From Myxococcota bacterium (GTDB lineage: Bacteria > Myxococcota > Myxococcia > Myxococcales > Myxococcaceae): a stretch of DNA of 48,039 nucleotides. The stretch covers positions 1 through 48,039 of the forward strand of contig JBKOYI010000109.1 in assembly GCA_046725335.1 (NCBI GenBank), written 5' to 3'. Each line of letters opens with the position of its first letter. The first letter of the stretch is position 1. The notes under the pieces are model-generated. The model saw only the letters and a list, made by a program, of their open reading frames with translations. It made no database searches and had not been told where the DNA came from. Both the position numbers and the translations under genes were made by a program. Below, one piece after another: positions 26,631 through 37,757 of the stretch.

Positions 26631-28994
<2,364 letters not shown>

Positions 28995-29030: not shown

Positions 29031-29585
29031 TTGGTGCTCCTGGCCTTCGGGGCCCACGCCGAGCCGCGCCGCAGTGGCAGCCACGCCTCGACCAACGCCG
29101 AGTATGGAATCGTGATGCTGGAGGAAACGCCGGGGCACTGCCGGTTGGAAGTGACGCGGGACACCGACCCGCTCTGGACCTTGTCCCGCTGCCTGGGCTC
29201 GGTGGACGACCTGTACTTCATCAGCGACTCGGGCCAGCGCTTCTGGGTCCTGTCGGCGCTGCCCAGGAAGGTTCCGCCGCCTTCCAAGACGGCCAAGCCG
29301 GCGCGGTCGCGGTCAGTGCACGACAAACCGCCGGCCCACGATGCCTACGGCGGAGTGGTGGTGGCCGTGCTCTACGACCGACTGGGAAACGTTCTCTCCG
29401 AGCGGAGGCTGGGGGAGTTCCTCTCCTCGGCCAGCTACCACAAGCTCCGGGTCCTGGACCGACGCTTCGTCTGGCTGGAGGGGGTGGCCGGAGTGCCCGG
29501 CCGGGAGCCGCACGTGACGGAGAAGAACCAGGTGGAGTTCGACACGGTCGAGCCGCGGACGCACCGACTCGGCTTTCAGGAATGA
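29031..29585 (+). CDS. hypothetical protein inserted between atpD and atpC (probably secreted; start uncertain)
   Basis: Coding-like G/C-rich third positions over 184 codons. The N-terminus LLVLLAFGAHA-EP looks like the h/c regions of a signal peptide. It is in the same frame as atpD. A strong SD AAGGGAG (28994-29000) is followed by an in-frame CTG at 29007, TTG at 29031 and GTG at 29034. No family recognised. Confidence 0.6.
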   Translation: MVLLAFGAHAEPRRSGSHASTNAEYGIVMLEETPGHCRLEVTRDTDPLWTLSRCLGSVDDLYFISDSGQRFWVLSALPRKVPPPSKTAKPARSRSVHDKPPAHDAYGGVVVAVLYDRLGNVLSERRLGEFLSSASYHKLRVLDRRFVWLEGVAGVPGREPHVTEKNQVEFDTVEPRTHRLGFQE

Positions 29586-29595
29586 GGACGGGTTC

Positions 29596-30009
29596 ATGGC
29601 CAAGCTGAACGTCGACATCGTCACCCCCGAGCGGCGCCTCGTCTCTGCCCCGGCGGATGAAGTGGTGGCCCCCGCCGCAGAGGGGCTCTATGGGGTTCGT
29701 CCGGGCCACACTCCCTTCCTCTCCCTGCTCATGCCGGGTCCGCTGACGGTGCGGGAAGGGGCCAACACCCAGGCCTGGTTCGTGGCCGGCGGCTTCTTCG
29801 AGGTGCAGAACGACAAGGTGCTCGTCCTAGCCGACGAGGCCGAACCGCTGGCCAGCATCGACCTCGAGTCGGCCAGCCGGGCCCTGCACGAGGCAGAGCA
29901 GTCGCTGGCTGCCCTTGGCTCCGGCGACCCGCGCTTTGCCTCCGAGACGATCCGGGTTCAGCGGGAGAGGGCCCGGGTGGCCGCTGCCCGCGGCGCCGCC
30001 AAGACCTGA
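29596..30009 (+). CDS. atpC: F1 ATP synthase epsilon subunit
   Basis: LNVDIVTPERRLVS...GVRPGHTPFLSLL...FVAGGFFEVQNDKVLVLAD, followed by a helical C-terminus. Confidence 0.93.
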   Translation: MAKLNVDIVTPERRLVSAPADEVVAPAAEGLYGVRPGHTPFLSLLMPGPLTVREGANTQAWFVAGGFFEVQNDKVLVLADEAEPLASIDLESASRALHEAEQSLAALGSGDPRFASETIRVQRERARVAAARGAAKT

Positions 30010-31120: not shown

Positions 31121-32164
31121 GTGGCCCGCCTCACGCTTGCCGTCTCGCTCCTTCTGTTGCCGTCATCCGTGTTCGCCCAACCTGGAGGGGTTCCCGTCCC
31201 GCTGGAACCGCCCGAGGTTGGAGTGCCCTTTGGCTGCGGGATGTCCTTTCCCGTGAGCCAGGTCCACAACGTCGGCAGCCACGTGAACAACGACGGCTGG
31301 GCCTGGGACTTCCGGATGCCGGAGGGCACGCCGGTGGTCGCCGCGCTCGACGGGGTGGTGCGACTGGCACGCGGGGACAGCAAGGACGGCGGGTGCGATC
31401 CGCAGCTCGCCCGCGAGGCCAACTACGTCGTGGTTGAGCACGACGGTGGGCTGGAGACGCAGTACTTGCACTTCTCCTCCGTCATCGTCCGTCCCGGCGA
31501 GCGCGTTCGTCAGGGGCAGCTGCTGGGTTACTCGGGAAGGACGGGGTGGGCCTGCGGCGCGCACCTGCACTTCAAGGTGGCGATCCCGGTCAGGGAGGGC
31601 TGGAACAATCCCTCGGTCGAGGCGCGGATCCGCGGCTATGGAGACCCGCGGCTGGAGACCTGGGTCTCCAGTCCTGCCTGCGGCGCCAACGCTCCGGTGG
31701 TTGCCGACAAGGGGGCTCCGAAGGCCCGGCCTGGAGCGGAGGTCGTTGAGCCTTCGTCGCAGGCTGCCGGAGGGACCGTGGCTCCGGCTTCACTTGCCAC
31801 CGGCCCGGACGCCGCAGGACCCGGCCATCCCTCCGGGCTCACCCTCGGTCCTGCCGGCGACCTGGGCGTGGAGACATCGCGGCCCCTTCCAGCGCCTGCT
31901 CTGCGGAGCGAGAGCCGAGCCGCTCCCGCGCCTGCGCTCCATCCGCTGTCCAGTGGCGGGGCGTCGCTGACCGTTGGAACTCCCCCGGCAGCGCCCAACT
32001 CGGTCCCTCTTGCTCCAGCCCAGCCCGCACCTTCCAGTCCGCCGAATTTGCTGCGTGTCGCGCCTCGCGGGCTGCAGGGTGCTGGGGCAGCGCCGGCGTC
32101 GCTGGGCGCCGAGCCGGAGCCGGAGGCGCAACCGGCAACGGAGCACAGTTCCTCGGCGCGGTGA
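31121..32164 (+). CDS. secreted M23 (LytM-type) metallopeptidase with a Pro/Ala-rich C-terminal tail
   Basis: Signal peptide MARLTLAVSLLLLPSSVFA. Zinc motifs HVNND (HxxxD) and AHLHF (HxH). The C-terminal ~170 aa are low-complexity P/A/S/G. Confidence 0.88.
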   Translation: MARLTLAVSLLLLPSSVFAQPGGVPVPLEPPEVGVPFGCGMSFPVSQVHNVGSHVNNDGWAWDFRMPEGTPVVAALDGVVRLARGDSKDGGCDPQLAREANYVVVEHDGGLETQYLHFSSVIVRPGERVRQGQLLGYSGRTGWACGAHLHFKVAIPVREGWNNPSVEARIRGYGDPRLETWVSSPACGANAPVVADKGAPKARPGAEVVEPSSQAAGGTVAPASLATGPDAAGPGHPSGLTLGPAGDLGVETSRPLPAPALRSESRAAPAPALHPLSSGGASLTVGTPPAAPNSVPLAPAQPAPSSPPNLLRVAPRGLQGAGAAPASLGAEPEPEAQPATEHSSSAR

Positions 32165-32236: not shown

Positions 32237-33952
32237 TCAGCGGGCGACGAGTTGCCTTGCAGCCTCCAGCGGACCGCGCAGCGCCGCCGCCACCGACGCT
32301 CGAACATCAGAAAAGGCCGCCTCGAGTGCGCGGCGGAAGGCAACCTGCCCTGCTCGCCGCAGTCCGGCCGCCACCCCCGACAGTGTCAGCGCCACCACCA
32401 GCGTTCCGGCCACCGTCCAGGCTCCGGCCAGCACCGCGGCGTTGACGAAATAGCCCGCCGGGAGCCAGCGACCTTCCCAGTAGGCTCGCGCCACCCGATA
32501 GCCGACGTGGAGCACCAGGGCCAGCAACGGCAGCTGGACCAGCGGCACGAGGAGGAGGCGCGCCCACTGCCACCAGCGGGCCACCGCCTCGGCCAGCACT
32601 GCCCCTTCCACCTCGCGCCAGGCCAGGGCCCGGGCTCCGGCCAGCGTGGCCACCCAGCTCGGATGACTGGGAAGCCCGAGCAACTCCGGAGCCAGTCCGC
32701 GAGACGCTGCCGCGGTCCGCGCCGGTCCGAGCGATTGACGCCCCAGGTTGTCCAGCGCTCCGTCGGCAGTGGAAAGCACGGCGCGTTCAGCGGCGGCATC
32801 GCGGCTCCGGGACTGCACCTCGTCCAGAACGGCTCCGGTGGCGGCCACCAGCAGCCCGGCGGGGAGGCTGGCCTGGGCCGCCAGCGCCGCTCCGGCCAGG
32901 CCTCCCGAGCCCCAACCCGAGAGGCGCAATCCCCAACCGATGGGCCCACTCAGCCGTGCCGCCGCCTGCCGGCGCACCGTCTGGCGCAGATGCGCCGAGG
33001 CCGCCTCCAGCCGAACGCGGAAATCCTCCTCCAGCGGTCCGTGGGTCTGGGTCAGCCCAAGCTCCAGGGCGGCCTGCACTTCGGACCGAGTGGCCTCCGT
33101 CTCCTCGAGCGCCCGGGCCACGCGCTGCTGGAGCTGCCCCAAGGCCGCCCGGGCATTGCGGCGTCGCAGCTCGGTGGCCACCCCCTCGTCGGCGAGCCGC
33201 TGCAGTGCCTCGCGCAGTCGGGGCCAGTCCTCTCCGTCCGCCTCGCCCATCCGAGCTTGCAAGGCACTCACCACGTAGATGGGCGGAGCCTCGTCCACCC
33301 CCAGCTCCGCCTGGGCCACCCTGGCCACCTGAGCCCGCAAGGCCTGCCGGGCCTCGGTCCCCAGCTGGTCGGCGAAATTCAGCACGCACAACAGTGCCCG
33401 TCGGCGAGCAAAGGGACGGAGCGCATCGGCCGGCCGTGCCTCGGCCACCGAGCCGCGGTGCAGAACCAGCAGCACGGCATCCACATGCTCCAGCACCGCC
33501 AGGGCCGTGGCGGCGTGGTTCTGAGCGATGGAGTTGAGATCCGGCGTGTCCACGAACACCTGTCCGGCCCAACCGCCAGCGGGATCCGGCAGGTAGCGGA
33601 TGATGCGAGGCACGACCTCCGCCAGGGCATCCAGATCGGCCTCCACCGGGGCATAGGCCACGGCCTCGGTGGAGGTGGGGCGATCGATTCCTTCGCGGGC
33701 CAGCAGCGTGCCGGCCAGCGCGTTCAGCAAGGTGGACTTGCCAGACCCGGTCGAGCCGACCAGAGCCAGGCGAAGTGGGCGCTCGGCCAGGGCCAGCGTT
33801 CGGGTGTAGTCGTCGGCCAGCCGCAGCAGCAGAACGCGTGACTCGGCCAGGGCGGGGAGCATGACCGCGGAGTCCAGGCGGGCCCGAAGCACTTCCGGCT
33901 CGGGAAGCTCGGGCTCCTCGGCTTTGCGGCGCAGCCGCCGGAACCAGTTCAT
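32237..33952 (-). CDS. membrane-anchored dynamin-like/YfjP-like P-loop GTPase (downstream member of a pair)
   Basis: G1 GSTGSGKSTLLNALAG, switch II VFVDTPDLNS, G4-like LNFAD. About 200 aa of Ala/Arg/Leu-rich helical region follow, then three hydrophobic segments (GWGLRLSGWGSGGLAGAALAAQASLPAGLLVAATGAVL; LLLVPLVQLPLLALVLHVGY; AAVLAGAWTVAGTLVVALTLSGVAAGL). The start overlaps the upstream stop (ATGA). Confidence 0.8.
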   Translation of the reverse strand: MNWFRRLRRKAEEPELPEPEVLRARLDSAVMLPALAESRVLLLRLADDYTRTLALAERPLRLALVGSTGSGKSTLLNALAGTLLAREGIDRPTSTEAVAYAPVEADLDALAEVVPRIIRYLPDPAGGWAGQVFVDTPDLNSIAQNHAATALAVLEHVDAVLLVLHRGSVAEARPADALRPFARRRALLCVLNFADQLGTEARQALRAQVARVAQAELGVDEAPPIYVVSALQARMGEADGEDWPRLREALQRLADEGVATELRRRNARAALGQLQQRVARALEETEATRSEVQAALELGLTQTHGPLEEDFRVRLEAASAHLRQTVRRQAAARLSGPIGWGLRLSGWGSGGLAGAALAAQASLPAGLLVAATGAVLDEVQSRSRDAAAERAVLSTADGALDNLGRQSLGPARTAAASRGLAPELLGLPSHPSWVATLAGARALAWREVEGAVLAEAVARWWQWARLLLVPLVQLPLLALVLHVGYRVARAYWEGRWLPAGYFVNAAVLAGAWTVAGTLVVALTLSGVAAGLRRAGQVAFRRALEAAFSDVRASVAAALRGPLEAARQLVAR

Positions 33953-35760
33953 GCGGCACCTCCGCTCAGCGCTGCCGCTCCCTGCTCGAAGGCGGTGGCT
34001 GCCGTCTCGGCCGAGTGCACCTGAGCGTCGAGCCGGGAGAGAAGAGAGGCGAAGAGCCGCGCCTCGAGCGCCCGTCCCAGCGAGGCGCCGTGCGACTCCG
34101 ACCAGGAACGGGTGACTTCACTGCGAACCCCAGCTCCCAGGAGGTCGACGAAACGCTCCATGAGCGGTGTGGTCAGCAGCGTCCCGGCCCAGACCACTGC
34201 GTCTTGCCCGACTCCGCCGGTCACCACCGTGACCACCGCGGCGGTGCTGGCCGGAACGCTGTAGACGAGCGTGGTGAGGGCCTGGAGGGCGCCCCCCTCC
34301 AGGCCGCCGGGGAGGTGGGCCGAGATGAGCTCGCGGCAGCGGGCGTGGAGCTGGGCCCGGTCCTCCCGCAGCGAAGCGTCTTCCACCAGGGGCCCGGGGC
34401 TCTGCAGAACGGCCAGAGTGGGGAGGCCGAGGGCCTCGACCAGCGCGGCAGCGGTGGCCGGGTCTCCACGCCAGGCGGCCAACTCCGGACCCAAGGCTTC
34501 GAGCAGCTGGCGCACCCCATCCCGAAGGGCCGCGTCCACCGCCTGTGCCGCCTCCGGGGCGAGGGCGGAAGGCGGCGGCGGAGCGAAGGAGGCTCGCAGG
34601 CGCCGCCCGACTGCCGAGAGCACCGCCGCCAGTCCTCGGAACGGCCGACGGATCCAGCGATGGACGGGGCTGCGGGCATCGAGCTCGTCACGAAAGGCTT
34701 CCACCAGGACGTCCGCCGGGACGGCCCGGAGTGCGGCTCGCGCTCCCACTTCCCGCAGGCCATGGCGGAGCCGGCTTCGGAGCCGCTCCGGCTCGCTCGC
34801 CGCATCCCGGATGCGAGCGGCCAGTGCACTCAGATCGGCGGCAGTGTCGCGCAGGGCCGCCGCTCGGGCCTGGGCCCGCAGCTCGGCGCCGCGCCCGACG
34901 TCTCCGAGCAGGGTGGAAACCGGTGGAGCACCGTTCAGCGGTTCGACGGTGAGGGGTCGGCGCCCGGCTTCGACCTCCGGATCATGCGGACAGCGGTACC
35001 GCGCAAAGGGGAGGGCCCCCACGTCGCGCTCCAGCTTGTCCAGATGGGCACGGGTGGTGGCCGCCTCAGGGGCCTCGTTGTACACCGCGATCCACGGCCG
35101 CCCGCGGCCCACCGCATCCCGCACCACCTCCACCAGGGTGGCGTTCTGGTAGGTGTGGCGGGAGACGACGAAGACCACTACGTCCACGGTCACCAGCAGT
35201 GCCTCGGTCCGGATCCGGTTGTCGCGAACCACGCTATCGAAGTCGGGGGTGTCCACCAGCACCAGGCCCGGCGGCAGGCGAGCCGAGGGCAGCAGGAACA
35301 GCCGCCCCGGAGGTCCTGGCTCGGTCACCGGGGCCCGTGCCCCCGGGGGGAGCAGCACCACTTCGTAGCGAGCCGACAGGGCCAGCCGCCCCGGCCCGTC
35401 GGCGGTCGTGGGATGGGCCACCGCCAGGCATTGCTGGGTCAGGCCTCCTTCGGCCCGAGCCGGGGAGAGGGCTTCGCCGGCCAGGGTGTTGAAGAGGGTG
35501 GACTTGCCCACGTTGTTCGGCCCGGCCAGGGCCACCAGGAGGAGTGCGCCGGTGTCGGACAGCCGCGGCAACAGGTCACGCCCGATGCGATTGCTGACCC
35601 GTGCGGCGAGCGCGCGAATGGCCGGATCGGCGCCGTCGGGCAACCGTTGGGCTGCCTCGGCGACCCGCTCCAACACTGGGACGAGCCTGTTCGCCTCGGT
35701 CACGTCACCCAGAGGCACTAGCACAGGAAGCGGCGCCGACCCGCCCCGGGGTGCTACCAT
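33949..35760 (-). CDS. dynamin-like/YfjP-like P-loop GTPase (upstream member of a pair)
   Basis: G1 GPNNVGKSTLFNTLAG, switch II LVDTPDFDS, G4 position VYNEA. A long Ala/Arg/Leu-rich helical region follows, then a hydrophobic patch near the C-terminus (STAAVVTVVTGGVGQDAVVWAGTLL). The first ~19 codons use rare A/T-ending codons, so the true start may be GTG 35703. Confidence 0.75.
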   Translation of the reverse strand: MVAPRGGSAPLPVLVPLGDVTEANRLVPVLERVAEAAQRLPDGADPAIRALAARVSNRIGRDLLPRLSDTGALLLVALAGPNNVGKSTLFNTLAGEALSPARAEGGLTQQCLAVAHPTTADGPGRLALSARYEVVLLPPGARAPVTEPGPPGRLFLLPSARLPPGLVLVDTPDFDSVVRDNRIRTEALLVTVDVVVFVVSRHTYQNATLVEVVRDAVGRGRPWIAVYNEAPEAATTRAHLDKLERDVGALPFARYRCPHDPEVEAGRRPLTVEPLNGAPPVSTLLGDVGRGAELRAQARAAALRDTAADLSALAARIRDAASEPERLRSRLRHGLREVGARAALRAVPADVLVEAFRDELDARSPVHRWIRRPFRGLAAVLSAVGRRLRASFAPPPPSALAPEAAQAVDAALRDGVRQLLEALGPELAAWRGDPATAAALVEALGLPTLAVLQSPGPLVEDASLREDRAQLHARCRELISAHLPGGLEGGALQALTTLVYSVPASTAAVVTVVTGGVGQDAVVWAGTLLTTPLMERFVDLLGAGVRSEVTRSWSESHGASLGRALEARLFASLLSRLDAQVHSAETAATAFEQGAAALSGGAA

Positions 35761-35777
35761 TCAGGGCCTTGGGCCTC

Positions 35778-37757
35778 ATGAATTCCCGTTCGGGCCTGGT
35801 GCTCTTGCCGGAACGTTCCGGCGCACGCGACCGGGTCAAGCAAGCACTCCAGGAAAGCGGCATCGAGCTGTGGCCCTCGGCGCTGGCCAGCGAGGCGGAC
35901 TACGTCGTGGTCGATCTCACCGCCCCGGGCGGTGACGAATCGCTGGACCGGCTCCGCCGTTCCGGGTCCCCGGCGGCGGTCCTGGCCCTGGTCGACGCAG
36001 CCGTGCTCCAACGTCGCTCGGCCGCGGGGGTTTCGGCCGATTCCCTCCTCTCCTATTCCGAGCTGGAGCGGGAGCTCGCCTGGCGGATGCAGAAGGCCCG
36101 GGTTCGCCAGGCGCTGGAGCTGCAGAGCCAGGAGCAGGAGCGAAACCTGGAAGTGCTGCTCGAGCTGACCGCCCGCTACGCCGAGAGCGCGGACCTGGAC
36201 GGGCTGCTCTACGACGTCACCCGGCGGCTGGCCGAGACCCTGGACATCGTCCGGGCCAGCCTGGTGCTCCTCGACGGTCCCGAGGTGGGAGTGGTGGTTG
36301 CCGCCAGCGACGAGCCGGGACTCAAGGATCTCCGGATCGACCTCGACCGCTACCCGGAGATCCGGGAATGCGTCCGGACCGGCCGCCCCATCCTGGTCCA
36401 GGACGTTCCCAGCCATCCGTTGCTGGAGGGGATGCACGAGCAGGTGGCCGCCGCGGGCATCCGCTCCCTGGCCACCCTCCCCCTCACGGTGCAGGACAAG
36501 GTCCTGGGAGTGCTGCTGGTCCGTGCTTCCTCGCGGCGTCCGGCTTTGAGCGGGCGGGAGGTGGATTTTCTGGCCACCGTCGCTCACGCCACGGCGGTGG
36601 CTCTGCGCAACGCCCGCGCCTTCGAGACCGTGCGAGGCCAGTCCGAGCGCGAGAAATCGGCCCGCATCGTCGCCGAACGCCGCGCTGCCGAGCTGAAGCG
36701 CTACGAGTCCTTCTTCGCCCACGTTTCCGAGGGAATCGCCATCCTCGACGAGGAGGGGCGGGTCCTGCTGCTCAACCCGGCCGGGGCAGCCTTGCTGGAG
36801 TTGACCCCCGAGAAGGTCCGCGGGCGCCCGATGCAGGAGCTCATTCGAACCGACGACTGGGAGGCACTGGCCAGCGTGCTCGCTGCGGTGGGAGAGGGCC
36901 TCCCCCAGCGTGACGTCGACCTCTCGCTCCGCACCGCCACGGACCGGCTGCTCACGCTGTCCTTCAACGGAGCGCCTCTCCGTGAAGGAGAGGCGGCGGT
37001 CATCCTCAGCTTCCGGGACGTGACCGCTCCCCGGCGTATGGAGAACGAGCTGCGCCGGACCAAGGAATTCCTGGAGAAGCTCATCGACAGCACCGTGGAC
37101 GCGGTGGTGGCCCTGGACACCAGGGGGCGTTTCATCCTCTTCAACAAAGGGGCGGAGGCGCTCACCGGTTACACCGGCCGGGAGGCCATCGAGGGCCTCT
37201 CGGCGGCCAACTTCTTCGTGGGGCAGCACATGCCGGAGGAGCTGCTGATGCGAATGCGCTCCGAGGAGCACGGAGGGCCCGGCCGGCTGGCGCTGACCCG
37301 GCAGGAGATCGTGACCAAGTCCGGCGAGTGCGTTCCGGTCAACATGACCGGGAGCATCCTCTACGAGGAGGACCGGGAAGTGGCGGCGGTGGGCATCCTC
37401 ACCGACCTCCGCGACCGGGTTCAGCTGGAACGTAGGCTTTCCGACGCCACCATTCGCCTGGAGCGCAGCGAGCGCAGCGCGGAGATGATCGCCCTGGCCG
37501 GCACCGCTGCCCACGAGCTGAACCAGCCCCTCACCTCGGTCCTCGGCTACGCCGAGCTGCTCAAGCGCAAGCTCAAGGAGGAGGATTACGCCTGGGCCAA
37601 GGTGGACATCATCCACCGCGAGGCGGAGCGGATGAAGGACATCGTTCGCAAGATCGGTCGCATCACCCGGTACGAGACCAAGGCCTACGTGGGCGAGGCT
37701 CGCATCCTCGATCTCGAGCGGGCCTCCGACGAGGACGGCGCCAGTTCCGAGGGGTAG
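35778..37757 (+). CDS. REC-like / GAF / PAS / PAS / HisKA(DHp) signalling protein without an HATPase_c domain
   Basis: N-terminal receiver-like fold (YVVVDLTAPGG). GAF domain (LDGLLYDVTRRLAETLDIVRASLVLL...LGVLLVRA). Two PAS domains (FFAHVSEGIAILDEEGRVLLLNPAG; LIDSTVDAVVALDTRGRFILFNKGAEALTGY). H-box GTAAHELNQPLTSVLGYAELL. The ORF ends about 55 aa after the H-box, with no N/G1/F/G2 boxes. Confidence 0.85.
   Translation: MNSRSGLVLLPERSGARDRVKQALQESGIELWPSALASEADYVVVDLTAPGGDESLDRLRRSGSPAAVLALVDAAVLQRRSAAGVSADSLLSYSELERELAWRMQKARVRQALELQSQEQERNLEVLLELTARYAESADLDGLLYDVTRRLAETLDIVRASLVLLDGPEVGVVVAASDEPGLKDLRIDLDRYPEIRECVRTGRPILVQDVPSHPLLEGMHEQVAAAGIRSLATLPLTVQDKVLGVLLVRASSRRPALSGREVDFLATVAHATAVALRNARAFETVRGQSEREKSARIVAERRAAELKRYESFFAHVSEGIAILDEEGRVLLLNPAGAALLELTPEKVRGRPMQELIRTDDWEALASVLAAVGEGLPQRDVDLSLRTATDRLLTLSFNGAPLREGEAAVILSFRDVTAPRRMENELRRTKEFLEKLIDSTVDAVVALDTRGRFILFNKGAEALTGYTGREAIEGLSAANFFVGQHMPEELLMRMRSEEHGGPGRLALTRQEIVTKSGECVPVNMTGSILYEEDREVAAVGILTDLRDRVQLERRLSDATIRLERSERSAEMIALAGTAAHELNQPLTSVLGYAELLKRKLKEEDYAWAKVDIIHREAERMKDIVRKIGRITRYETKAYVGEARILDLERASDEDGASSEG

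What the first reader, a model, noticed from the sequence alone, without database searches (positions are those of the whole stretch)
32237..35760. Translationally coupled pair of divergent dynamin-like membrane GTPases with DTPD in place of the DxxG switch II
Two ~570-600-aa ORFs overlap by ATGA (33949-33952). Each starts with a P-loop GTPase (G1 GPNNVGKST / GSTGSGKST) and continues with more than 300 aa of Ala/Arg/Leu-rich, presumably helical sequence. The downstream protein ends in three clearly hydrophobic segments, and the upstream one has a shorter hydrophobic patch. A GTPase head, helical stalk and membrane paddle encoded as an adjacent pair is the layout of bacterial dynamin-like proteins (DynA halves, LeoB/LeoC, IniA/IniC, Campylobacter DLP1/DLP2). 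The unusual point is that both paralogs carry DTPD (LVDTPDFDS, VFVDTPDLNS) where all classical GTPases have DxxG, whose Gly contacts the gamma-phosphate. The upstream one also has YNEA where NKxD is expected, while the downstream one keeps NFAD. I could not place either protein in a named family by eye. The pair is flanked divergently by an ATPase-less GAF/PAS sensor on one side. On the other side are a secreted M23 peptidase and a LuxR-type regulator. This suggests, but does not show, an envelope-remodelling or stress module. This is my best candidate for an undescribed system in the window.
Basis: partly seen in the sequence, partly recalled or inferred. Interest (0 to 1): 0.7.

Follow-up and report, generated by a model that had tools for sequence, protein, structure and literature searches.

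The report
Myxobacterial DynA/DynB-type dynamin-like GTPase pair

Summary
Two minus-strand genes, A (33949-35760, 603 aa) and B (32237-33952, 571 aa), overlap by ATGA. Both carry DTPD where GTPases have DxxG. DTPD is invariant in 120/120 homologues of each and aligns with the DTPG of IniA.

AlphaFold2 models (pLDDT 80 and 85) match bacterial dynamin-like proteins best (BDLP, IniA, Campylobacter DLP1/2, mitofusin).

The pair is not an unplaceable system. A genome scan found the same adjacent pair throughout Actinomycetota. Published S. venezuelae dynA cloning primers match the ends of the upstream gene exactly. That pair is therefore DynA/DynB, and it has DAPD and DLPD at G3.

A resembles DynA: best BLAST and profile hit, and no guanine-specific G4 Asp. 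B resembles DynB: best BLAST hit, a C-terminal two-helix membrane hairpin, and NxxD kept. Gene order is the same. Deep tree nodes are weakly supported.

Adjacent A-type/B-type pairs also occur in a planctomycete. DxPD relatives occur in Gammaproteobacteria.

Within Myxococcaceae-type contigs, 36 evaluable loci keep the genes adjacent. One Myxococcus-like clade has them apart.

Verdict: a new member of a known kind. Function in myxobacteria is untested. The family-wide DxPD switch II appears undiscussed in the searchable literature.

The parts
33949..35760 (-). Gene A: DynA-like dynamin-like GTPase, 603 aa as called. The true start is probably about 13-25 codons downstream.
   Evidence: ORF. 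Pfam MMR_HSR1 and Dynamin_N. AF2 pLDDT 80, pTM 0.75. Foldseek top hits are BDLP, IniA, Drp1 and mitofusin. Best BLAST and hhalign partner is the actinobacterial DynA.
32237..33952 (-). Gene B: DynB-like, membrane-anchored dynamin-like GTPase, 571 aa.
   Evidence: ORF. Pfam Dynamin_N 30.2 bits against a cut-off of 27. PADLOC LeoA 1.8e-10. AF2 pLDDT 85, pTM 0.74. Foldseek top hits are BDLP 5e-11, IniA and Cj-DLP1/2. Best BLAST partner is DynB, 3e-19.
33949..33952 (-). ATGA overlap of the A stop codon and the B start codon (translational coupling).
   Evidence: Sequence read. The same 4-nt or 11-nt overlaps occur in Engelhardtia (GTGA) and in L138.
33959..33963 (-). GGAGG Shine-Dalgarno-like sequence 6 nt upstream of the B start, inside the 3' end of A.
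35497..35523 (-). A G1 / P-loop, GPNNVGKST.
   Evidence: Invariant in 120/120 homologues.
35431..35448 (-). A candidate G2 / switch I, GGLTQQ. Thr108 is invariant.
   Evidence: Invariant columns G105, G106, L107, T108 in alignment A2. Its role as G2 is inferred from position.
35242..35253 (-). A G3 position, DTPD in place of DxxG.
   Evidence: D170, T171, P172 and D173 are invariant in 120/120.
35071..35082 (-). A G4 position, YNEA. The guanine-specifying Asp is missing.
   Evidence: Y, N and E are invariant. It aligns with VLDRVP of the Streptomyces DynA orthologue. The same YNEA is present in the planctomycete A-type protein.
34150..34278 (-). A residues 495-537: a conserved, weakly hydrophobic, low-confidence segment at the position of a DLP paddle.
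   Evidence: Hydropathy. pLDDT below 50 for residues 502-532. Many invariant columns between 497 and 535. A membrane role is inferred.
33731..33757 (-). B G1 / P-loop, GSTGSGKST.
33671..33685 (-). B candidate G2 / switch I, DRPTS. R91, P92, T93 and S94 are invariant. The RPTT equivalent is present in DynA and DynB.
33539..33550 (-). B G3 position, DTPD in place of DxxG.
   Evidence: Invariant. Aligned residue for residue with the DTPG of M. smegmatis IniA, PDB 6j72.
33368..33379 (-). B G4, NFAD (NKxD-like; Asn and Asp retained).
   Evidence: N192, A194 and D195 are invariant. It aligns with LNQID of the DynB orthologue.
32843..32935 (-). B residues 340-370: a Gly/Trp-rich, weakly hydrophobic tip between stalk helices.
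   Evidence: Low pLDDT for residues 349-352. Weak hydropathy peak at 352-370. W340 and G341 are nearly invariant.
32498..32569 (-). B hydrophobic helix 1, residues 462-485 (first arm of the membrane hairpin).
   Evidence: Maximum Kyte-Doolittle value 2.24. Helix in the AF2 model. It lies at the same position as the DynB hydrophobic block, published as deltaTM 468-517.
32357..32449 (-). B hydrophobic helix 2, residues 502-532 (second arm of the membrane hairpin).
31121..32164 (+). Convergent neighbour: a secreted M23 peptidase. It is context only and not shown to be part of the system.
   Evidence: Peptidase_M23. It stays next to B in window-clade contigs and in loci where A lies elsewhere, L003 and L005. 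It is absent next to the pair in L138 and L140.

Best explanation
The two genes encode a heterotypic bacterial dynamin-like protein (DLP) pair of the same family as Streptomyces DynA/DynB.

**Shown**
- Both proteins have a dynamin-type G domain followed by a long helical neck and trunk.
- B carries a two-helix hydrophobic hairpin near its C-terminus, where BDLP has its paddle and where DynB has its two transmembrane segments.
- A has only a weakly hydrophobic conserved loop at that position.
- The genes are co-oriented and overlap by ATGA.
- The A-type then B-type arrangement recurs in Myxococcota, a planctomycete and, as dynA-dynB, across Actinomycetota.

**Inferred mechanism**
- B sits in the cytoplasmic membrane.
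- A is made in matched amounts and is recruited to B through nucleotide-dependent G-domain and stalk contacts.
- The A-B assembly scaffolds or remodels the inner membrane. By analogy with DynAB, this would most likely happen at sites of constriction such as division or sporulation septa.
- The G3 Asp (DxPD) is a family-wide, fixed feature. Its backbone NH can still reach the gamma-phosphate, but loss of the Gly should alter switch II flexibility. The acidic side chain may take part in cation or water positioning.
- A-type and DynA proteins lack the guanine-reading Asp of G4, whereas B-type and DynB proteins keep NxxD. This suggests an asymmetric pair with one specific GTPase and one partner of relaxed or regulatory nucleotide use.
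For: - **Fold.** Foldseek top hits for both AF2 models are BDLP, IniA, Cj-DLP1/2, mitofusin/Fzo1 and EHD, at E = 1e-7 to 5e-11.
- **Pfam.** Dynamin_N is at or above its cut-off for both proteins.
- **Identity of the actinobacterial relatives.** Primers ss65/ss66, used to clone S. venezuelae dynA (vnz_12110), match the first and last bases of the upstream DxPD gene in L007 and L008 with 0 mismatches. The dynB deltaTM primer ss189 matches the hydrophobic region of the downstream gene with 2 mismatches.
- **Homology by BLASTP.** A vs DynA is 2e-17 over 345 aa, against 3e-11 for DynB. B vs DynB is 3e-19, against 8e-9 for DynA.
- **Homology by hhalign.** The A family vs DynA scores 223 over 431 columns.
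- **Shared derived characters.** DxPDx[D/N]S at G3 in all four groups. A and DynA lack NKxD. B and DynB keep NxxD and a C-terminal hydrophobic hairpin at about residues 460-530.
- **Pair conservation.** The genes are adjacent in 36 evaluable Myxococcaceae-type loci, in L138 and in Engelhardtia mirabilis with a GTGA overlap.
- **Published function of DynAB.** DynB has two TM segments, recruits DynA in a GTP-binding-dependent manner, and both stabilise Z-rings (PMC8748795; 10.1101/2025.06.23.661029).
Against: - No experiment exists on any myxobacterial member.
- The deep nodes linking A to DynA (18/40 bootstraps) and B to DynB (0-9/40) are weak in a G-domain NJ tree. hhalign does not separate B-DynB (207) from B-DynA (200). 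One-to-one orthology is therefore probable, not proven.
- The Streptomyces partners SsgB and SepX are actinobacterial (PMC8748795, read; their presence in Myxococcota was not searched here), so a divisome role cannot simply be transferred.
- In a Myxococcus-like clade A and B are not adjacent: about 22 kb apart in M. stipitatus, and B is absent from the sequenced downstream flank in six metagenome contigs. Strict co-translation is therefore not essential.
- Foldseek TM-scores are low (0.2-0.5), as expected for elongated multi-domain proteins in different conformations.
Confidence: 0.6

Rival explanations
1. The pair is a membrane-repair or anti-phage DLP system, like B. subtilis DynA or the LeoABC-type defence DLPs. 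It would be recruited to damaged membrane rather than to the divisome.
For: B matches the PADLOC LeoA model at 1.8e-10 over residues 128-330. B. subtilis DynA is reported to act in membrane integrity and phage defence (PMC12998192 abstract). The fold evidence fits any DLP equally well.
Against: A matches LeoA only at 0.025, and LeoBC matches are 0.005 or weaker. The neighbourhood is housekeeping (ATP synthase, ExbB/ExbD, sensor kinase), stably syntenic, and not a defence island. Both genes have homologues across many Myxococcaceae genera and the pair recurs across phyla, unlike patchy defence systems. The closest characterised relatives by sequence are DynA and DynB, not LeoA.
Confidence: 0.2
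2. The proteins are nucleotide-binding scaffolds that do not hydrolyse GTP efficiently. Gly to Asp at G3 in both, plus loss of the G4 Asp in A, would turn them into slow switches or pseudo-GTPases. Function would then depend on binding only, or on ATP in the case of A.
For: From established GTPase biochemistry (own knowledge), the DxxG Gly is needed for the switch II transition in Ras, G-alpha and EF-Tu. DxPD is invariant here. A and DynA lack the NKxD Asp. The DynAB phenotypes reported so far rest on P-loop (binding) mutants, and the 2025 preprint discusses hydrolysis only as a possibility.
Against: G1, the switch I Thr and the Walker B Asp are strictly conserved, which argues for a working catalytic site. 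The conservation of DxPDx[D/N]S over at least four phyla looks like a functional alternative, not decay. This reading is compatible with the best explanation and concerns only the chemistry.
Confidence: 0.15
3. The proteins are not dynamin-like at all. They would be ordinary Era/Der-type '50S ribosome-binding' GTPases or ABC-type ATPases, as public annotations call them (EcfA2, MnmE, 50S ribosome-binding GTPase).
For: Pfam MMR_HSR1 is above its cut-off for both proteins, and ABC_tran is just above its cut-off for B (26.4 against 25). Source names use these labels.
Against: The ABC_tran match covers only the P-loop (residues 61-89), and no LSGGQ signature exists. All NCBIfam equivalog scores are far below their cut-offs, for example Era 22 against 237. 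More than 300 residues of DLP-like helical stalk follow the G domain, and fold search ranks DLPs first.
Confidence: 0.03

Closest known systems
Streptomyces DynA/DynB (S. venezuelae vnz_12110 / vnz_12105; Schlimpert et al. 2017, PNAS 114:E6176; PMC8748795)
   Same: - Two adjacent co-oriented paralogous DLP genes.
- DxPDx[D/N]S instead of DxxG in both proteins.
- The upstream protein lacks the NKxD Asp.
- The downstream protein keeps NxxD and has a two-helix membrane hairpin at about residues 460-530.
- They are the best pairwise matches: A-DynA 28% over 345 aa, B-DynB 38% over 261 aa.
   Different: - Identity is only 28-38% and mostly confined to the G domain.
- The P-loop of A is GPNNVGKS, against GSTGAGKS in DynA.
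- A has a conserved weakly hydrophobic loop that DynA lacks.
- The host is a Gram-negative myxobacterium. The known DynAB partners SsgB and SepX are described as actinobacterial, and they were not searched for here.
- Orthology at deep nodes is weakly supported.
- No functional data exist for the myxobacterial pair.
Nostoc punctiforme BDLP (PDB 2j68/2j69)
   Same: It is the best Foldseek match for both models, at E = 5e-11 and 2e-8. It shares the G domain, helical neck and trunk, and a hydrophobic membrane element near 80-90% of the chain length.
   Different: BDLP has a canonical DxxG at G3 (own knowledge; not re-checked here). It is a single gene product that self-assembles. Sequence identity is 12-16%.
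Mycobacterial IniA/IniC (PDB 6j72/6j73)
   Same: It has the DLP fold and is a top-3 Foldseek hit. It is the only PDB sequence match beyond the P-loop, and its DTPG aligns with the DTPD of B. Its genes are also paired (own knowledge).
   Different: IniA keeps Gly at G3. It is a drug-induced membrane fission protein according to the PMC6715688 abstract. It is a different DLP lineage from DynAB within Actinomycetota.
Campylobacter jejuni DLP1/DLP2 (PDB 5owv/5oxf)
   Same: It is an operon-encoded heterotypic DLP pair. It gives the highest full-length TM-score to B, 0.40 for 5oxf_C.
   Different: Identity is 10-14%. It has a canonical G3 (own knowledge). It forms a soluble tetramer that tethers membranes, with no integral TM hairpin partner.
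LeoABC / PADLOC Leo defence DLPs
   Same: B matches the LeoA HMM at 1.8e-10, and LeoA (4aur) appears in the fold hits.
   Different: Leo is a three-gene system. A barely matches it, and there is no defence-island context.

Membership tests
Dynamin superfamily / bacterial dynamin-like proteins | Match to the Dynamin_N profile at or above Pfam's gathering score | tested here: met
   A scores 27.3 bits and B 30.2 bits against a cut-off of 27. Both are marginal. The planctomycete B-type protein scores 49.5 bits.
Dynamin superfamily / bacterial dynamin-like proteins | G domain followed by a helical neck/trunk with the BDLP/mitofusin-like fold | tested here: met
   The AF2 models have pLDDT 85 and 80. 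Foldseek top hits are BDLP, IniA, Cj-DLP1/2, Mfn1, Fzo1 and EHD, all at probability 1.00. TM-scores normalised to the truncated Mfn1/Fzo1 targets are 0.44-0.52.
Dynamin superfamily / bacterial dynamin-like proteins | Canonical G3 DxxG (switch II glycine) | tested here: not met
   Both proteins have DTPD. It is invariant in homologues and aligns with the DTPG of IniA. The characterised DLPs DynA and DynB share this deviation, so it does not exclude DLP membership.
Dynamin superfamily / bacterial dynamin-like proteins | G4 N/TKxD guanine-specificity motif | tested here: inconclusive
   B has NFAD, with Asn and Asp conserved. A has YNEA and lacks the Asp.
Dynamin superfamily / bacterial dynamin-like proteins | Membrane-binding element (paddle, TM or PH) | tested here: met
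   B has two hydrophobic helices, 462-485 and 502-532, with Kyte-Doolittle maxima up to 2.24. A has only a weak patch. Actual membrane insertion was not testable.
Dynamin superfamily / bacterial dynamin-like proteins | Nucleotide-dependent self-assembly, stimulated GTPase activity and membrane remodelling | not testable with these tools
   This needs purified protein and liposome assays.
DynA/DynB-type DLP pair (Streptomyces) | Sequence homology to DynA and DynB, with A closest to DynA and B closest to DynB | tested here: met
   BLASTP gives A-DynA 2e-17 (against 3e-11 for DynB) and B-DynB 3e-19 (against 8e-9 for DynA). hhalign gives A family vs DynA 223 against 169 for DynB, but B family vs DynB 207 against 200 for DynA. 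The DynA identity of L007/L008 is fixed by the published primers.
DynA/DynB-type DLP pair (Streptomyces) | One-to-one orthology in a phylogeny | tested here: inconclusive
   In the NJ tree of 197 G-domain columns, each of the four groups is recovered in 40/40 bootstraps. A-type plus DynA is recovered in 18/40. B-type plus DynB is recovered in 0/40, or 9/40 when three unplaced sequences are included.
DynA/DynB-type DLP pair (Streptomyces) | Adjacent co-oriented genes, soluble partner first and TM-anchored partner second | tested here: met
   The window pair overlaps by ATGA. The actinobacterial loci have the same order. The DynB-like protein has a hydrophobic block at 462-519, matching the published deltaTM 468-517.
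DynA/DynB-type DLP pair (Streptomyces) | Localisation to the divisome and interaction with FtsZ-associated proteins (SepF2, SsgB, SepX) | not testable with these tools
   This is known only for Streptomyces (PMC8748795). Whether these partners exist in Myxococcota was not tested.
LeoABC-type defence DLP system (PADLOC) | Three components LeoA, LeoB and LeoC matching the PADLOC models, in a defence context | tested here: not met
   Only B matches LeoA, at 1.8e-10. LeoBC matches are 0.005 and 0.026. There is no third gene, and the neighbours are housekeeping genes.
Era/Der/HflX-type ribosome-associated GTPases (MMR_HSR1) | Score at or above the NCBIfam equivalog cut-off, and the family's accessory domains (KH, second G domain, etc.) | tested here: not met
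   The best scores are 20-25 bits against cut-offs of 237-380. Matches cover only the P-loop region.
ABC-transporter ATPase (public annotation 'EcfA2') | Full ABC_tran domain with the LSGGQ signature | tested here: not met
   The ABC_tran match covers profile positions 13-41 of 137 only. No [LIV]SGG[QE] is present in either protein.

The most novel reading that the evidence does not exclude
DynAB-type proteins may form a large, mechanistically separate branch of the dynamin superfamily.
- **Size and spread.** At least 2236 clusters at 50% identity match at E <= 1e-10, from Actinomycetota, Myxococcota, Planctomycetota and Gammaproteobacteria.
- **Chemistry.** The universally conserved switch II Gly is replaced by Asp (DxPDx[D/N]S). 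This could give a different way of sensing or hydrolysing the gamma-phosphate, for example Asp-assisted water or cation positioning, or a binding-only switch.
- **Asymmetry.** One partner of each pair has given up guanine specificity.
- **Test system.** The myxobacterial pair would be a Gram-negative, genetically tractable entry point through the M. xanthus orthologues. It could test whether this branch is a general bacterial constriction or division module.
Probability: 0.3. Interest if true: 0.65.

Novelty: new member of a known kind. Interest (0 to 1): 0.4.

Why it matters
- **Reach of the family.** DynA/DynB are described as actinobacterial cell-division DLPs. One recent preprint regards homologues in other bacteria as rare and eroded. 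This window shows intact, strongly conserved, translationally coupled homologues in Myxococcaceae. The follow-up shows the same pair in a planctomycete and related DxPD proteins in Gammaproteobacteria. The module is therefore older and more widespread than described.
- **An unremarked signature.** Asp replaces the switch II Gly across the whole family, including the experimentally studied DynA and DynB. I found no mention of this in the searchable literature. It bears directly on how these DLPs use GTP.
- **Annotation.** These proteins are currently labelled EcfA2, MnmE or '50S ribosome-binding GTPase' in public records. They should be labelled DLPs.

Tried and rejected
- **Sequence-only PDB searches** with single sequences and with profiles were dominated by P-loop matches to ABC proteins and Der/Era. 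They did not place the proteins. Only a P-loop-free fragment gave the informative IniA alignment.
- **NCBIfam** gave no family-level match.
- **PADLOC** gave only a weak LeoA similarity, which I rejected as membership.
It returned 77 actinobacterial loci and only 3 myxobacterial ones. This was lucky for finding DynAB but poor for Myxococcota statistics. I compensated with the metagenome scan.
- **The listing of cluster members** gave almost no names.
- **The primary DynAB paper** (PMC5544309) is not held. I could not check whether its supplement already notes DxPD. Literature searches for DxPD, DTPD, DLPD and DAPD, and for Myxococcus plus dynamin, found nothing relevant.
- **The dynB terminal primers** did not match any held locus, because the termini are variable. 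An internal primer did match.
- **The 355-aa gene downstream of A in M. stipitatus** is unrelated to B.
- **The sigma-70 promoter scan** found nothing. The terminator-like hits are at chance level.
- **Bootstrap support** for deep paralogue relationships is weak.

Full report
**1. The observation**

The window (about 68-73% G+C) carries two minus-strand ORFs. A is at 33949-35760 (603 aa) and B is at 32237-33952 (571 aa). Reading the DNA shows ...GGAGGTGCCGCATGAACTGG.... The TGA of A and the ATG of B share ATGA at 33949-33952, and a GGAGG lies 6 nt upstream of the B start.

- A: GPNNVGKST, DTPD, YNEA.
- B: GSTGSGKST, DTPD, NFAD.

The two proteins are paralogues in the G domain: 33% identity over 183 aa, E = 3e-9.

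In 120 database homologues of each protein, D-T-P-D is invariant. So are Y-N-E in A and N-x-A-D in B. A P-loop-free fragment of B aligns FVDTPDLNS with FVDTPGVGG of M. smegmatis IniA. DTPD therefore sits at the real G3 position.

Two small corrections apply.
- B has two strong hydrophobic helices (462-485 and 502-532) plus one weak patch. A has one weak patch.
- The called start of A lies 17 bp from the divergent sensor gene's ATG, and homologues start about 16-25 residues later. The real start is probably downstream.

**2. What the proteins are**

Profile searches are weak but point one way.
- Pfam: MMR_HSR1 is above its cut-off, and Dynamin_N is at or just above its cut-off (27.3 and 30.2 bits against 27).
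- NCBIfam: nothing at family level.
- PADLOC: LeoA at 1.8e-10 for B only.

AlphaFold2 with family alignments gave confident models: B with pLDDT 85 and pTM 0.74, A with pLDDT 80 and pTM 0.75. Each has an alpha/beta G domain followed by very long helices.

Foldseek against the PDB ranks only dynamin-superfamily structures at the top for both models. These are BDLP (5e-11 and 2e-8), IniA, Campylobacter DLP1/DLP2, mitofusin-1/2, Fzo1, EHD2/4, Drp1, OPA1 and SynDLP. Global TM-scores are low (0.2-0.4), as expected for elongated hinged proteins. Against the compact Mfn1 and Fzo1 constructs they reach 0.44-0.52 normalised to the target. The dynamin-like reading of the first stage is therefore supported.

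**3. The decisive lead: the actinobacterial pair**

The latter include Streptomyces, Mycobacteriales, Nonomuraea, Micromonospora, Cutibacterium, Arthrobacter and Demequina.

In nearly every one of these I found two adjacent co-oriented paralogues.
- Upstream gene: GSTGAGKS ... LLD[A/T]PDIDS.
- Downstream gene: GATGSGKS ... LLDLPDHDS.

The published cloning primers for S. venezuelae dynA (vnz_12110; ss65/ss66, supplement of PMC8748795) match the first 20 and last 28 bases of the upstream gene in L007 and L008. There are no mismatches. The primer used to delete the DynB transmembrane segments (ss189) matches the hydrophobic region of the downstream gene in L008 with 2 mismatches.

The sizes and P-loop lysine positions also fit. 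The preprint (10.1101/2025.06.23.661029) names K74 for DynA, against K73 in L007 (my count from the sequence). The hydrophobic block of the DynB-like protein lies at 462-519, against the published deltaTM 468-517.

The actinobacterial DxPD pair is therefore DynA/DynB, the DLP pair reported to stabilise FtsZ rings in Streptomyces. So the characterised DynA and DynB themselves carry DAPD and DLPD at G3. DynA also has VLDRVP where NKxD is expected.

**4. Relation of the window pair to DynA/DynB**

- BLASTP: A hits DynA at 2e-17 (28% over 345 aa, running into the stalk), against 3e-11 for DynB. B hits DynB at 3e-19 (38% over 261 aa), against 8e-9 for DynA.
- Profile-profile: the A family vs DynA scores 223 over 431 columns, against 169 for DynB. 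The B family scores 207 with DynB and 200 with DynA, which is a tie.
- Shared characters agree with A~DynA and B~DynB. A and DynA have lost the G4 Asp. B and DynB retain NxxD and a C-terminal two-helix hydrophobic hairpin at the same position. Gene order is the same.
- An NJ tree of 197 G-domain columns recovers each of the four groups in 40/40 bootstraps. It joins A-type with DynA in only 18/40, and B-type with DynB in 0/40, or 9/40 when three unplaced sequences are included.

I treat family membership as established and one-to-one orthology as probable.

**5. How widespread and how conserved**

A full HMMER scan of 1.84 billion representatives with the B profile gave 6681 clusters at E <= 1e-3 and 2236 at E <= 1e-10.

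The nine apparent DxPG matches are all false positives upstream of the true motif. The sequences the expression missed, where inspected, read W[IL]DxPD[IF]DS.

The family therefore shows a fixed DxPDx[D/N]S signature. Members occur in Myxococcota, in Planctomycetota and in Gammaproteobacteria.
- Planctomycetota: Engelhardtia mirabilis has an A-type gene (GPNNAGKS / DTPDFDS / YNEA) followed by a B-type gene, with a GTGA overlap.
- Gammaproteobacteria: a subfamily with GGTGVGKS and a mitofusin-like N[HQR]WD at G4.
- An unassigned 71% G+C contig (L138) has the same A-type/B-type pair with an 11-nt overlap.

**6. Pair conservation within Myxococcaceae**

A metagenome scan with the A family, followed by tblastn mapping, gave these counts.

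| State of the pair | Loci | Notes |
|---|---|---|
| A followed directly by B | 36 | A identity 49-100% |
| No B within the available >= 4 kb downstream | 7 | All with A identity about 58-59% |
| 3.7 kb apart | 1 | L006 |

In Myxococcus stipitatus, A and B lie on the same strand in the same order but about 22 kb apart. The traA/traB genes lie downstream of A, in the intervening DNA. Adjacency is thus ancestral and has been broken in one clade. Both genes stay intact there.

The wider synteny (ExbB, sensor kinase, A, B, M23 peptidase, LuxR) holds in the window clade. The M23 gene stays convergent to B even when A is elsewhere (L003, L005). None of these neighbours accompanies the pair in L138 or in Engelhardtia. 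I count them as context, not as parts.

**7. How it most likely works**

*Shown.* Both proteins have the DLP fold. They are a conserved coupled pair. B has a hydrophobic hairpin at about 81-93% of its length (residues 462-532 of 571). By my recollection, the BDLP paddle occupies a comparable part of its chain; this was not re-checked here. A has a strongly conserved but only weakly hydrophobic, low-confidence loop at the equivalent place (residues 495-537).

*Inferred by homology with DynAB* (PMC8748795; preprint 10.1101/2025.06.23.661029).
- B is the membrane-anchored subunit.
- A is recruited to B in a nucleotide-binding-dependent way.
- The complex scaffolds or remodels the cytoplasmic membrane, most plausibly at constriction sites.

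*Inferred from chemistry* (own knowledge of GTPases).
- The backbone NH at the fourth G3 position can still contact the gamma-phosphate.
- Replacing Gly with Asp should stiffen switch II and puts a carboxylate near the active site.
- A-type and DynA proteins have lost the guanine-reading Asp. The two heads are therefore probably not equivalent.

I put 0.6 on this overall picture. Within it, I put about 0.85 on 'DynAB-family DLP pair with B membrane-anchored'. I put only about 0.35 on 'acts at the divisome in myxobacteria'.

**8. Rivals**

- A repair or defence DLP (0.2). This is compatible with the fold and the LeoA similarity. The housekeeping synteny and broad conservation argue against it.
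- A binding-only or slow switch (0.15). This is not exclusive of the main model.
- The public annotations as ribosome GTPase or ABC ATPase (0.03). Domain coverage, cut-offs and fold reject these.

**9. Novelty and interest**

This is a new, phylogenetically distant member of a known kind, the DynA/DynB-type DLP pairs. It is not an undescribed system.

Two things I could not find in the searchable literature.
- The existence of intact DynAB-type pairs outside Actinomycetota.
- The family-wide Gly-to-Asp change at switch II.

The primary DynAB paper was not available for checking. That gives moderate interest (0.4). The most novel reading left open is a mechanistically distinct DxPD branch of the dynamin superfamily.

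Noticed in passing
window 35740-35780: The called ATG of gene A (35760) and the ATG of the divergent sensor gene (35778-35780, + strand) are only 17 bp apart. Homologues of A are about 16 residues shorter and align from residue 22-26, and the first 18 residues have pLDDT below 50. The start of A is probably one of the in-frame GTGs downstream.
   Followed up: partly
window 35778-37757 (+): The divergent neighbour is a GAF-PAS-PAS-HisKA protein. Only about 80 residues follow the H-box, so it has no HATPase_c domain and is a kinase core without the ATP-binding half. It is syntenic with the pair in window-clade contigs (51-73% identity) but absent near the pair in more distant lineages.
   Followed up: partly
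window 31121-32164 (+); L003 11540-12370; L005 11777-12247: A signal-peptide-bearing M23 peptidase lies convergent to gene B. It stays next to B even in genomes where A is elsewhere. Whether this reflects function (septal peptidoglycan hydrolysis?) or only family-level synteny is open.
   Followed up: partly
L002 and L003 (Myxococcus stipitatus CP147913, about 5.29-5.32 Mb): In M. stipitatus, A and B are on the same strand in the same order but about 22 kb apart. The stretch downstream of A holds a glycosyltransferase and the outer-membrane-exchange genes traA/traB (Myxo_TraA_N, OmpA). The ancestral pair looks split by inserted DNA.
   Followed up: partly
window 29031-29585 (+): A 184-aa ORF with no Pfam match is called as a gene in the public record. 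It sits between the ATP synthase beta (27552-28994) and epsilon (29596-30009) genes, an unusual interruption of atpD-atpC.
   Followed up: no
L052, L060, L071 (Timonella, Isoptericola, Actinotalea): These actinobacterial loci carry two complete DynA-like/DynB-like pairs within about 10 kb of each other. The whole pair has been duplicated in some lineages.
   Followed up: no
proteins P0316-P0380 (Gammaproteobacteria, e.g. Methylothermaceae MAG): A gammaproteobacterial subfamily of about 540-560 aa shares the DxPD G3 (W[IL]DxPD[IF]DS). It has a GGTGVGKS P-loop and a mitofusin/BDLP-like N[HQR]WD at G4. Its gene context was not examined.
   Followed up: partly
public annotations of homologues: Family members are variously named 'energy-coupling factor transporter ATP-binding protein EcfA2', 'tRNA modification GTPase MnmE', '50S ribosome-binding GTPase', 'ABC transporter' and, rarely, 'dynamin family protein'. 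This is systematic mis-annotation driven by P-loop-only matches.
   Followed up: yes
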